This document shows positions 56,371-56,647 of a stretch of 64,000 nucleotides of DNA, in pieces. The stretch is from a virus. Taxonomy: Duplodnaviria > Caudoviricetes. Below the pieces are notes generated by a model. That model saw only the letters and a list, made by a program, of their open reading frames with translations. It searched no databases and was not told the DNA's origin. Numbering within the stretch: the first letter of the stretch is position 1; every line of letters begins with the position of its first letter. The position numbers were made by a program, and so were the translations under genes. Where the stretch lies: the IMG/VR virus record IMGVR_UViG_3300017764_000001; one strand, written 5' to 3'.

Positions 56371-56464
56371 ATCGTTCAACCCCAGATTAGTATTCAGTTT
56401 GCAATACTTTTATTGGTATTCAAAGCATAATATTTGATGGGGTCGCAAGTAAGTCGCGGAACGG
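56371..56464 (+). ncRNA. Glutamine riboswitch-like aptamer 1 (Downstream-peptide/glnA family)
   Basis: P1 CGTTC/GAACG; P2 ACCCC/GGGGT with an expanded loop; CGCA junction; begins at the predicted transcription start. Confidence 0.7.
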
Positions 56465-56465
56465 A

Positions 56466-56647
56466 GCGTTCATCCCATGATTGACTTTTATTTCTATGCA
56501 AATTTATTGTGTTCTGATGCTTTCAAGATAATTGAAAAAATCAAAATTCAAGAAAATTTGCCACCAGTAGTAAAAGTTGATTTGATTGAAACCGTAAAGG
56601 AATCATCACCAAAATGTAACTGGGACGCAAACGACTAAAGGAACGGG
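56466..56647 (+). ncRNA. Glutamine riboswitch-like aptamer 2 with an ORF inside its P2 loop
   Basis: GCGTTCATCCC...GGGACGCA...GGAACGGG; directly upstream of a DUF4278-like gene. Confidence 0.68.
56477..56638 (+). CDS. 53-aa ORF nested in aptamer 2 (MIDFYFY...CNWDAND)
   Basis: Translated by hand; GGAG 12-15 nt upstream; open across the whole loop. Confidence 0.55.
   Translation: MIDFYFYANLLCSDAFKIIEKIKIQENLPPVVKVDLIETVKESSPKCNWDAND

What the first reader, a model, noticed from the sequence alone, without database searches (positions are those of the whole stretch)
56371..56647. Tandem glutamine-riboswitch-like aptamers with a whole ORF inside one aptamer and possible cross-aptamer pairing
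Seen: two CGTTCA-P2-CGCA...GGAACGG units back to back. The P2 loop of unit 2 is ~150 nt and holds a 53-aa ORF whose last codons (W-D-A-N-D-stop) are the aptamer's own 3' strand (GGGACGCAAACGACTAA). The junction of unit 1 (AGTCG, 56452-56456) is complementary to that of unit 2 (CGACT, 56632-56636). Known: glnA and Downstream-peptide motifs bind glutamine, occur in cyanobacteria and their phages, and precede DUF4278-like genes; the Downstream-peptide class uses a pseudoknot. Inference: a two-aptamer device in which ribosome transit through the nested ORF unfolds aptamer 2, integrating glutamine level with translational status.
Basis: partly seen in the sequence, partly recalled or inferred. Interest (0 to 1): 0.75.

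Follow-up and report, generated by a model that had tools for sequence, protein, structure and literature searches.

The report
Gene nested inside interlocked glutamine riboswitch
This marine cyanophage starts a small nitrogen-related operon with a glutamine-sensing RNA built from two interlocked sensor cores. One of its hairpins closes around a complete, conserved 53-codon gene, a layout shared by hundreds of cyanophages and missed by standard riboswitch scans.

Summary
Both CGUUCA...CGCA...GGAACGG units, the 53-aa ORF (56477-56638) and the AGUCG/CGACU complementarity are at the stated coordinates.

Comparison with about 190 related phage contigs changes the reading.
- The ORF is a real gene (phrog_504): codon-position entropy is 1.09/0.58/1.49, but its last six codons are frozen at all three positions by the RNA.
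- The hairpin that encloses it covaries across the gene. Relatives have the same hairpin with a 3-4 nt loop.
It is the P3 stem of one type-I (glnA, RF01739) aptamer made from the 5' half of unit 1 and the 3' half of unit 2. Compact relatives score 35.6-46.4 bits over that whole span (threshold 35).
- The two inner halves pair with each other. Seven loci carry a matched G:C to C:G flip that breaks the side-by-side fold.
- The nested gene's stop codon lies in a strand that covaries with the bases just 5' of the downstream DUF4278 (IF17-like) ribosome-binding site.

Regulation itself is inferred, not shown. The family is known; the gene-bearing, interlocked architecture appears undescribed. Earlier follow-ups of this scan reached the same reading on other cyanophage DNA.

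The parts
56336..56364 (+). Sigma-70-type promoter: TTGACT, 17-nt spacer, TATAAT. It places the RNA 5' end about 56370-56372, directly at the aptamer. A GTA-N8-TAC (NtcA-like) box lies at 56314-56327.
   Evidence: Sequence and coordinates. The same TTGAC-N17-TATAAT plus GTA-N8-TAC arrangement stands upstream of the first CGTTCA in many related loci. The start site is inferred.
56373..56377 (+). Outer P1 5' strand, CGUUC (C1-C5). It pairs with GAACG 56641-45. A6 is at 56378.
   Evidence: Invariant in 165 distinct loci. The RF01739 alignment of compact relatives pairs it with the distal GAACG.
56379..56443 (+). Hairpin 1 (P2 of the type-I aptamer). The stem is ACCCCA/UGGGGU with a 53-nt non-coding extension in the loop. 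In about a quarter of the distinct relatives (47 of 165) this loop holds a 65-75-aa gene instead.
   Evidence: stem 6 bp, loop 53 nt in the window. Covariation: 562/585 canonical cells against a partner-shuffle mean of 420.
56444..56451 (+). Linking strand 1, CGCAAGUA. It corresponds to C17-G18-C19 of the binding core plus the 5' part of the loop-E motif.
   Evidence: Invariant in the loci found. It matches the RF01739 consensus CGGAAGUA with one change.
56452..56456 (+).
   Evidence: Pairs with 56632-56636. Compensatory variants: AAUCG/CGAUU, AGUCA/UGACU, GGUCA/UGACU, AGACU/AGUCU. Both strands gain 3 nt together in L052 and L042/L122.
56458..56472 (+). Inner module junction: GGAACGG (56458-64), linker AG, CGUUCA (56467-72). 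GAACG 56459-63 pairs with CGUUC 56467-71.
   Evidence: G:C at the top pair in 158 distinct loci and C:G in 7, never mixed. Predicted in the ViennaRNA minimum-energy fold. The linker varies from 2 to 4 nt, up to 98 nt, or is replaced by a whole gene.
56473..56625 (+). Hairpin 2. The stem is UCCCA (56473-77) with UGGGA (56621-25), closing around the nested gene.
   Evidence: Predicted in the minimum-energy fold. Among 148 distinct loci with a gene in this loop, pairs 1-4 are canonical in 147-148, with CG/UA/UG exchange at pair 4. Compact versions with 3-4-nt loops and covarying stems exist.
56477..56638 (+). Nested gene ORF-2: 53 aa, phrog_504, predicted three-helix protein of unknown function. 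The stop codon UAA is at 56636-56638.
56626..56631 (+). Linking strand 2, CGCAAA (C17-G18-C19 of the inner core). It is read as codons D-A-N of ORF-2.
   Evidence: Zero entropy at the third positions of GAC and GCA in 55 ORFs of 53 aa. It is kept in compact forms that have no ORF.
56632..56636 (+).
   Evidence: As for 56452-56456.
56637..56646 (+). AAAG (the GAAG strand of loop E; the G is G35), then the outer P1 3' strand GAACG 56641-45, then G41 at 56646.
   Evidence: RF01739 alignment of compact relatives. Invariant except for the R of the stop codon.
56635..56669 (+). Helix A, the putative OFF-state sequestor. CUAAAG (56635-40, which includes the ORF-2 stop codon) pairs with CUUUAG (56664-69), overlapping the AG of the ribosome-binding site.
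   Evidence: Covariation: A with U in 59/59 loci; G with C in 68 and with U in 25; no A.C. Present in the minimum-energy fold.
56668..56847 (+). Regulated gene: SD AGGAG 56668-72 and ATG at 56680. The product is a 55-aa DUF4278-like (IF17-like) protein, phrog_545.
   Evidence: (PF14105 at 19.1 bits, below the 25.3 cut-off).

Best explanation
The element is one composite glutamine riboswitch of the glnA/type-I kind, not two independent aptamers.

Architecture:
- Its outer core is built from the 5' half of 'unit 1' (CGUUC 56373-77, hairpin 1, CGCAAGUA) and the 3' half of 'unit 2' (AAAG-GAACGG 56637-46).
- The AGUCG/CGACU pairing is its P3 stem.
- Inside P3, the remaining halves (GGAACGG 56458-64 and CGUUCA 56467-72, hairpin 2, CGCAAA) pair with each other. 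They keep every nucleotide that forms the glutamine pocket in solved structures, so they probably form a second, interlocked core.
- Hairpin 2 closes around a real 53-aa gene. That gene's AUG begins at the last base of the stem's 5' strand, and its final codons and stop are aptamer sequence.

Proposed working (inferred):
- Without glutamine, CUAAAG (which holds the nested stop codon) pairs with CUUUAG at the ribosome-binding site of the DUF4278/IF17-like gene and keeps it off.
- Glutamine locks P1, P3 and loop E, withdraws that strand, and turns the gene on, as in the Synechocystis gifB switch.
- The same folding buries the start codon of the nested gene, so the nested gene and the downstream gene would respond in opposite directions.
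- Ribosomes finishing the nested gene would transiently open both the sensor and the sequestor helix.

The confidence given applies to the architecture together with the ON-switch reading. The architecture alone I rate at about 0.85 and the reciprocal control of the nested gene at about 0.45.
For: Shown:
1. Real gene. The frame is open in every complete locus found with the junction pattern, giving 117 distinct proteins of 52-58 aa plus a 66-aa family. Codon-position entropy is 1.09/0.58/1.49 in codons 2-47 and 0.07/0.17/0.02 in the last six codons. It belongs to phrog_504 and has 747 homologue clusters.
2. RNA constraint rather than protein constraint on the 3' half. In L017 the ORF stops 12 nt earlier, yet the 3' half is intact. 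Compact forms without any ORF keep CGCAAACGACURAAGGAACGG.
3. Hairpins covary across gene-sized loops. For the gene nested in hairpin 1 of relatives, the stop codon identity covaries with the bases before its AUG: UCUUAUG/CAUAAGA, UCUCAUG/CAUGAGA, UCCUAUG/CAUAGGA.
4. P3 shows compensatory changes at three positions in L048, L032, L114 and L074, and both strands gain 3 nt together in L052.
5. Nested topology. RF01739 scores 35.6-46.4 bits (gathering score 35) over the whole span in 9 of 12 compact relatives, against 20.9-25.8 bits for unit 1 alone. The inner G36:C5 pair is flipped to C:G in 7 distinct loci with three different linkers, never singly.
6. Helix A covaries and appears in the minimum-energy fold together with the inner hairpin and hairpin 2.
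7. No version with a simple P3 was found.

From the literature:
- Type-1 and type-2 glutamine riboswitches are translational ON switches before DUF4278/IF17-like genes (PMC6212724).
- The C5:G36 pair is not among the nucleotides that contact the ligand, and the type-II RNA domain-swaps in the crystal (PMC6698751).
Against: - No experiment bears on ligand binding, switching or translation here.
- The four P1-type strands are nearly invariant. The nested topology therefore rests on one kind of double substitution whose two sites lie only about 9 nt apart and may stem from a single event. It also rests on model scores and on the split of the loop-E parts between the two units.
- In most loci the side-by-side fold remains possible. 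RF01704 even reaches its threshold on 'unit 2' alone in one relative (34 bits, gathering score 33).
- Two contigs (L042, L122) have an imperfect P3, with 6 of 8 pairs.
- In the window a local hairpin, CCUAAA 56648-53 with UUUAGG 56665-70, could still mask the ribosome-binding site after the aptamer folds.
- A terminating ribosome that opens helix A could make the downstream gene glutamine-independent. That would blur the proposed reciprocal logic.
- The nested genes could simply occupy tolerant loops.
Confidence: 0.65

Rival explanations
1. Two independent tandem aptamers of the glutamine-II (Downstream-peptide) type sit side by side. Each pairs its own CGUUC with its own GAACG. AGUCG/CGACU and CUAAAG/CUUUAG are their P2 helices with very long loops. 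Two sensors in a row would give a steeper, more digital response.
For: - Each unit carries CGUUCA, a hairpin, CGC and GGAACGG in the type-II order.
- RF01704 gives 26.4 bits on unit 1 of S-P4, 28.1 bits on unit 2 of L125 and 34 bits (gathering score 33) on unit 2 of L144.
- Tandem glnA RNAs are reported (PMC2864571).
- The forced side-by-side fold is only about 2.6 kcal/mol worse than the forced nested fold.
Against: - Seven loci with GCAACGG plus CGUUGA would have C.C and G.G mismatches in this fold but perfect pairs in the nested fold.
- RF01739 scores 35.6-46.4 bits over the whole span, well above any single-unit score.
- The AAGUA and GAAG halves of loop E lie in different units.
- No P2 3' strand follows GGAACGG directly, as it does in the type-II consensus.
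Confidence: 0.12
2. The RNA is a bistable device that alternates between the side-by-side and the nested pairing. The exchange of partners, driven by glutamine or by ribosomes on the nested gene, is itself the switch.
For: - All four P1-type strands are identical in 158 of 165 distinct loci, so both folds are available.
- Such freezing of sequence is typical of strands with two partners.
- Both Rfam models find their own reading in compact forms.
- The calculated energies are close.
Against: The seven flipped loci can no longer form the side-by-side fold cleanly, yet they keep the whole element, the nested gene and the downstream gene. The alternation therefore cannot be essential. The strong sequence constraint is equally explained by two ligand pockets.
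Confidence: 0.13
3. The gene insertions are passive. Peripheral hairpin loops of the aptamer tolerate any insert, and compact phage genomes or mobile small genes have filled them, as homing-endonuclease genes fill loops of group I introns. There is no regulatory link between sensor and nested gene.
For: - All four combinations of compact and gene-bearing hairpins exist.
- Many unrelated-looking small genes occupy hairpin 2.
- A third site, the inner linker, holds a long gene that looks by eye like a GIY-YIG endonuclease in L156/L179, and 63-98-nt remnants in L166/L183.
- The window's hairpin 1 carries a 53-nt non-coding insert.
Against: - In the different nested gene families and in both hairpins, the AUG lies within the stem's 5' strand, 4-7 nt after CGUUCA. 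This leaves no room for a separate ribosome-binding site inside the loop.
- The stop lies in the 3' strand or in the CURAAG strand.
- Folding therefore must occlude initiation, whatever the origin of the inserts.
Confidence: 0.2

Closest known systems
Glutamine-I riboswitch (glnA RNA motif, Rfam RF01739), for example the Synechocystis gifB leader (Klahn et al. 2018, PMC6212724; Weinberg et al. 2010, PMC2864571)
   Same: - CGUUC/GAACG P1, a hairpin after CGUUCA, a CG(G/C)AAGUA junction, a P3 stem, and GAAG before GAACG.
- It lies in front of a DUF4278/IF17-like gene.
- Compact relatives pass the curated score.
- The expected logic is a translational ON switch that releases a masked ribosome-binding site.
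   Different: - P3 is not a small hairpin. It encloses a second set of core strands, and in the window also a whole gene.
- Hairpin loops carry genes of 50-75 codons, so paired segments lie 150-270 nt apart.
- The window's own copy cannot reach the Rfam threshold.
Glutamine-II riboswitch (Downstream-peptide motif, Rfam RF01704; structure in Huang et al. 2019, PMC6698751)
   Same: - CGC rather than CGG after the hairpin.
- All pocket nucleotides are present (C1, G2, U3, G18, C19, A38-G41).
- It occurs in marine picocyanobacterial systems and precedes DUF4278 genes.
- The solved RNA forms a strand-exchanged dimer. The phage RNA resembles that arrangement within a single chain.
   Different: - No P2 3' strand directly follows GGAACGG.
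- Scores stay below or at threshold (26-34 bits, gathering score 33).
- The inner core has a different strand connectivity.
Tandem riboswitches (glycine riboswitch, tandem glnA RNAs)
   Same: Two sensor cores for one ligand lie on one leader, with contacts between them.
   Different: Here the halves are interleaved (5' half 1 with 3' half 2) rather than adjacent, and genes lie inside the sensor.
Group I/II introns with homing-endonuclease or maturase ORFs in peripheral loops
   Same: Protein-coding genes sit in terminal loops of a conserved structured RNA. The RNA must fold around them, and translation competes with folding.
   Different: This is a riboswitch, not a ribozyme. The nested genes are small proteins with two conserved Cys and unknown function. 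Their start and stop codons lie in the closing stems.

Membership tests
Glutamine-I riboswitch (RF01739) | Covariance-model score at or above the gathering score (35 bits) | tested here: inconclusive
   The window gets only 20.9 bits, on unit 1 alone. Inserts of 53 and 143 nt put the full span out of the model's reach. Compact relatives, identical outside the hairpins, score 35.6-46.4 bits in 9 of 12 loci.
Glutamine-I riboswitch (RF01739) | P1 helix CGUUC/GAACG closing a three-way junction | tested here: met
   56373-77 pairs with 56641-45. Both strands are invariant. The matched flip of the inner pair in 7 loci assigns the partners.
Glutamine-I riboswitch (RF01739) | Hairpin (P2) directly after CGUUCA, supported by covariation | tested here: met
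   562/585 canonical cells against a shuffle mean of 420.
Glutamine-I riboswitch (RF01739) | P3 stem between AAGUA and GAAG | tested here: met
   AGUCG 56452-56 pairs with CGACU 56632-36, with compensatory variants. Its loop is 175 nt in the window, against about 4 nt in the consensus.
Glutamine-I riboswitch (RF01739) | Conserved junction CGGAAGUA and GAAG (loop E) | tested here: met
   The window has CGCAAGUA (one change) and AAAG (GAAG in relatives with a UGA stop).
Glutamine-I riboswitch (RF01739) | Selective binding of L-glutamine | not testable with these tools
   Needs in-line probing or ITC.
Glutamine-II riboswitch (RF01704) | Covariance-model score at or above the gathering score (33 bits) | tested here: not met
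   No hit in the window at E up to 10. Relatives score 26.4, 28.1 and 34 bits.
Glutamine-II riboswitch (RF01704) | P2 helix whose 3' strand directly follows GGAACGG(G) | tested here: not met
   The bases after both GGAACGG copies do not pair with the preceding strand. The covarying partners lie 18 nt away for helix A and 167 nt away for P3.
Glutamine-II riboswitch (RF01704) | Pocket nucleotides C1, G2, U3, C17-C19, A38-G41 | tested here: met
   Present in both cores and invariant across loci. The roles of these nucleotides are taken from PMC6698751.
DUF4278 / IF17-like protein (downstream gene) | Pfam PF14105 at or above 25.3 bits | tested here: not met
   19.1 bits, E 0.0017. It belongs to phrog_545 and has YRG motifs. 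The resemblance is plausible, but membership is not shown.

The most novel reading that the evidence does not exclude
A single phage RNA holds two interlocked glutamine pockets and acts as a two-way translational toggle. At low glutamine the unfolded sensor lets ribosomes start the small two-Cys protein genes nested in its hairpins. At high glutamine the folded sensor buries their start codons and frees the ribosome-binding site of an IF17-like inhibitor of host glutamine synthetase. Ribosomes on the nested gene feed back on sensor folding. Riboswitches would then be near-universal in T4-like cyanophages, contrary to the view that phages rarely use them.
Probability: 0.3. Interest if true: 0.9.

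Novelty: new variant of a known kind. Interest (0 to 1): 0.8.

Why it matters
- Riboswitch aptamers are treated as compact non-coding domains. Here the conserved stems of one close around complete protein-coding genes, so ligand sensing and translation must compete on the same nucleotides.
- It gives a natural example of an intramolecular strand-exchanged double aptamer.
- It changes a survey conclusion. A 2017 census found only two glutamine riboswitches in cyanophages and concluded that phages rarely use riboswitches (PMC5473149). Model scans miss it because of the inserts.
- It ties phage infection to host nitrogen status through an IF17-like protein.
- It can be tested directly in cultured phages such as S-P4, Syn30 and S-TIM5.

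Tried and rejected
- Rfam at gathering threshold finds nothing at the locus in the window. With E-values it finds only 20.9 bits on unit 1 and nothing for RF01704. The window therefore cannot be filed by score alone.
Unbiased sampling had to use DNA patterns, which fix part of the sequence.
- No whole genome is held for the window.
- The one genome-contig scan gave 33 hits. Of these, 27 are chance matches in GC-rich genomes. The other 6 are low-GC (37-43% G+C) contigs with the full phage-type junction, filed under cellular names. No bona fide cyanobacterial chromosome was seen. The pattern was very specific, so this does not show that hosts lack the layout.
- Ames & Breaker 2011 (PMC3127080) is not held. 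I could not check what they say about tandem or enlarged forms.
- Four literature searches and six papers read gave no description of genes inside a riboswitch aptamer.
- Function of ORF-2: Pfam gave no hit. PHROGs lists it as unknown function. The AlphaFold model is a three-helix protein, and Foldseek found no PDB match below E 4.6.
- Sequencing runs. Contigs from RNA libraries cover 56469-56841, 56488-56794 and 56450-57275 without differences. They are contigs, may contain DNA, and show no ends. This is no proof of transcription, and parts without cover mean nothing.
- The local hairpin CCUAAA/UUUAGG, proposed in another note on this window, is not conserved in relatives with a UGA stop. The competing helix A covaries instead.
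- MAFFT alignment A2 of the compact forms does not align the hairpin stems by structure. I therefore counted pairs from the conserved flanks in scripts instead of using count of structure pairs.
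Full report
**1. What is in the window**

The window is from a marine T4-like cyanophage. It carries a PhotoRC-II RNA at 4436-4531. The region around the finding matches 428 phage records, nearly all Synechococcus and Prochlorococcus myophages.

- Unit 1: CGTTCA 56373-78; a hairpin ACCCCA/TGGGGT with a 53-nt insert; CGCAAGTA 56444-51; AGTCG 56452-56; GGAACGG 56458-64.
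- Linker: AG.
- Unit 2: CGTTCA 56467-72; TCCCA 56473-77; about 143 nt; TGGGA 56621-25; CGCAAA 56626-31; CGACT 56632-36; AAAG-GAACGG up to 56646.
- The ATG ORF 56477-56638 (53 aa, ending WDAND-TAA) is listed.
- Downstream are AGGAG 56668-72 and a 55-aa gene at 56680-56847. This gene is weakly DUF4278-like (19.1 bits, cut-off 25.3) and belongs to phrog_545.
- Upstream are a TTGACT-17-TATAAT promoter (56336-64) and a GTA-N8-TAC box (56314-27). These put the RNA 5' end at the first CGUUCA.

**2. Rfam on the window**

At gathering threshold nothing is found at the locus. With E-values, RF01739 (Glutamine, glnA) aligns unit 1 alone at 20.9 bits against a gathering score of 35. RF01704 does not appear, and unit 2 is not seen. 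The reason became clear from relatives.

**3. The nested ORF is a real gene, and its end is dictated by RNA**

Cultured phages S-P4, Syn30, S-TIM5 and Sf-CH1b annotate a CDS at the same place. A scan of IMG/VR for the 22-nt junction GGAACGGAGCGTTCATCCCATG reached the 120-locus limit.

Evidence that the ORF codes for a protein:
- In every complete locus the frame is open, giving 117 distinct proteins of 52-58 aa, plus a second family of 66 aa at the same site.
- In 55 ORFs of 53 aa, entropy by codon position over codons 2-47 is 1.09/0.58/1.49. This is the signature of a protein under purifying selection.
- The protein is phrog_504 and has 747 homologue clusters, all marine or phage and unnamed.
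- It is predicted as a three-helix protein with a poorly ordered tail (pLDDT 80.6).
- It has no convincing structural match.

Evidence that the last codons are constrained as RNA:
- Over the last six codons the entropy is 0.07/0.17/0.02. Third positions are frozen.
- In L017 the ORF stops 12 nt early, yet the GGGACGCAAACGACUGAAGGAACGG block is intact.
- Forms with no ORF at all keep the same block.

The WDAND tail is therefore aptamer sequence read by the ribosome.

**4. The hairpin really closes around the gene**

Compact versions of hairpin 2 exist with 3-4-nt loops and different stems: UCCGUC/GACGGA, UCCC/GGGA, UCCUC/GAGGA, UCUC/GAGA and UCCAG/CUGGA.

Among 148 distinct loci with a gene in this loop:
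- Pairs 1-4 are canonical in 147-148 loci.
- Pair 4 exchanges CG (126), UA (14) and UG (6).
- Observed pairing exceeds all 1000 partner shuffles.

Hairpin 1 behaves the same way.
- In 47 of the 165 distinct loci its loop holds another gene of 65-75 aa (phrog_6471).
- The AUG of that gene lies in the 5' strand of the stem and its stop in the 3' strand.
- The stop identity covaries with the bases before the AUG: UCUUAUG/CAUAAGA, UCUCAUG/CAUGAGA and UCCUAUG/CAUAGGA.

All four combinations of compact and gene-bearing hairpins occur. The gene-bearing units are therefore the same RNA with gene-sized inserts. In the window, hairpin 1 carries only a 53-nt non-coding extension.

**5. The cross-pairing is P3 of a type-I aptamer**

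AGUCG/CGACU is invariant in most loci, but several variants are compensatory:

| Locus | 5' strand | 3' strand |
|---|---|---|
| L048 | AAUCG | CGAUU |
| L032 | AGUCA | UGACU |
| L114 | GGUCA | UGACU |
| L074 | AGACU | AGUCU |

L052 adds 3 nt to both strands and keeps 7 of 8 pairs. L042 and L122 also add 3 nt to both strands but keep only 6 of 8.

On the fully compact relative L125, RF01739 scores 46.4 bits with one alignment that spans both units. In that alignment:
- P1 is CGUUC of unit 1 with GAACG of unit 2.
- P2 is hairpin 1.
- P3 is AGU...ACU.
- GAAG follows P3.

Nine of twelve compact loci pass the gathering score in this way (35.6-46.4 bits). Gene-bearing loci are missed. The two halves of the loop-E motif, AAGUA and GAAG, lie in different 'units'.

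**6. The inner halves pair with each other**

In 165 distinct loci the outer strands never vary. The inner GGAACGG and CGUUCA are standard in 158 loci. In 7 loci they are changed together to GCAACGG and CGUUGA, never singly, with three different linkers (AG, UUC, AAC) and different nested genes.
- The double change keeps GAACG of unit 1 paired with CGUUC of unit 2.
- In a side-by-side fold it would give C.C and G.G mismatches.
- The two sites are close together, so this may be a single ancestral event. It is nonetheless precisely the complementary change.

ViennaRNA independently predicts the inner hairpin, hairpin 2 across the ORF, and helix A in the minimum-energy fold of the window, at -77.4 kcal/mol. 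The forced nested fold costs 2.9 kcal/mol more. The forced side-by-side fold costs 5.5 kcal/mol more.

A scan for the same P3 with a simple loop found only two contigs, and both have the inner module.

The inner module keeps every pocket nucleotide: C1, G2, U3, C17-C19 and A38-G41. The only pair that varies is C5:G36, which is not conserved and not in contact with the ligand in the solved type-II structure. That RNA also forms a strand-exchanged dimer in the crystal (PMC6698751). I therefore read the element as two interlocked cores. That the inner one binds glutamine is inferred.

**7. Expression platform**

The strand CURAAG is made of the last two bases of P3, the first three loop-E bases (the RAA of GAAG) and G35. 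It holds the nested stop codon. It is complementary to CUUYAG, which ends inside the AGGAG of the downstream gene.
- The stop's middle base covaries with its partner. A pairs with U in 59 of 59 loci. G pairs with C in 68 and with U in 25. There is no A.C.
- This helix competes with P3, loop E and P1. It fits the published model for ON switches, in which glutamine melts an inhibitory duplex (PMC6212724).
- Codon 2 of the downstream gene is AAC in 120 of 129 cases. Elsewhere in the same genes Asn is AAC in 143 of 261 cases. AUGAAC is complementary to GUUCAU of the P1 5' strand, and the minimum-energy folds pair them. This hints at a second mask on the start codon. The window has AAU there.

**8. 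Mechanism**

*Shown:* the architecture, the coding status of the nested gene, and the covarying helices.

*Inferred:*
- (a) Glutamine turns on the IF17-like gene by withdrawing CURAAG from the ribosome-binding site. I rate this likely, about 0.6, by homology with tested switches.
- (b) Folding hides the nested start codon, so the nested gene is favoured at low glutamine. I rate this at about 0.45. In the different nested gene families, the AUG sits 4-7 nt after CGUUCA within the stem, with no room for a ribosome-binding site of its own.
- (c) Ribosomes ending at the nested stop open both the sensor and helix A. This could couple translation of the two genes and complicate (a).

**9. Comparison and novelty**

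The family is known: the glutamine-I riboswitch in front of DUF4278 genes. Tandem glnA RNAs are also mentioned in PMC2864571. I did not find three things in the searched literature:
- genes inside aptamer hairpins;
- the interleaved double core;
- the near-ubiquity of the element in T4-like cyanophages. A 2017 census reported only two cyanophage examples and concluded that phages rarely use riboswitches (PMC5473149).

Ames & Breaker 2011 could not be read.

Earlier follow-ups of this scan reached the same reading on other cyanophage genomes. I found those notes after my own analysis, and they agree with it.

**10. Verdict**

- Observation: confirmed.
- Interpretation: partly supported.
- Novelty: a new architectural variant of a known riboswitch class.
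- Interest: high.
- The regulatory logic still has to be tested at the bench.

Noticed in passing
window 56314-56364: A GTA-N8-TAC (NtcA-like) box lies 8 nt upstream of a TTGACT-17-TATAAT promoter. The same arrangement precedes the first CGUUCA in many related loci. The operon may therefore be read through both NtcA/2-oxoglutarate and glutamine.
   Followed up: partly
window 56680-56685 and related loci: The downstream gene starts AUG AAC in 120 of 129 relatives, against 55% AAC at other Asn codons. AUGAAC is complementary to GUUCAU of the P1 5' strand. This could be a second mask on the start codon. The window itself has AAU.
   Followed up: partly
L004:815-860 and many other loci (for example L008, L020, L030, L046): Many relatives carry a conserved insert between GGAACGG and the ribosome-binding site: AACGGAUCC, a GNRA-type hairpin, then GAGAAGGUUAAU. 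It loosely recalls the CGGA...GAAGG junction of the aptamer. It has no Rfam hit and is absent from the window.
   Followed up: no
L156:3-566 and L179; L166 and L183: The linker between the inner GGAACGG and CGUUCA is a third insertion site. In L156 and L179 a long gene ends just before CGUUCA. By eye it has a GIY...YIG-like N-terminus and an HTH-like C-terminus, with no Pfam hit. L166 and L183 hold 63-98-nt remnants with the same C-terminal coding sequence.
   Followed up: partly
L019, L130, L133, L139, L150, L151, L155, L172, L177, L178 (hairpin 2 loops): At least ten further nested small proteins of 50-66 aa were seen. Most have a hydrophobic N-terminus, one Cys near residue 9-25 and a second Cys a few residues before the RNA-imposed DAND tail. 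They may be one divergent family of two-Cys proteins. Function is unknown.
   Followed up: partly
window 56385-56437: Hairpin 1 of the window carries a 53-nt AT-rich extension with no ORF. It is predicted to fold as an elongated stem. Relatives have either a tetraloop or a 65-75-aa gene at this place.
   Followed up: partly
L202, L208, L213, L219, L220, L226 (genome contigs): Contigs with the phage-type junction are filed under cellular names: a Synechococcus MAG (194 kb), Nonlabens xiamenensis strain 1Q3 (188 kb), a Euryarchaeota TMED129 MAG, a Verrucomicrobiales MAG and an uncultured bacterium. Their G+C is 37-43%. Two of them are the size of a cyanomyovirus genome. They are probably mis-binned or contaminating phage DNA.
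   Followed up: no
window 56961-57125: A second small gene with a YRGVSY motif (phrog_6192) follows the DUF4278-like gene. A possible short membrane peptide lies between the two.
   Followed up: no
window 4436-4531: A PhotoRC-II RNA (RF01717, 77.7 bits) was found. It is the only Rfam hit of the window at gathering threshold.
   Followed up: no
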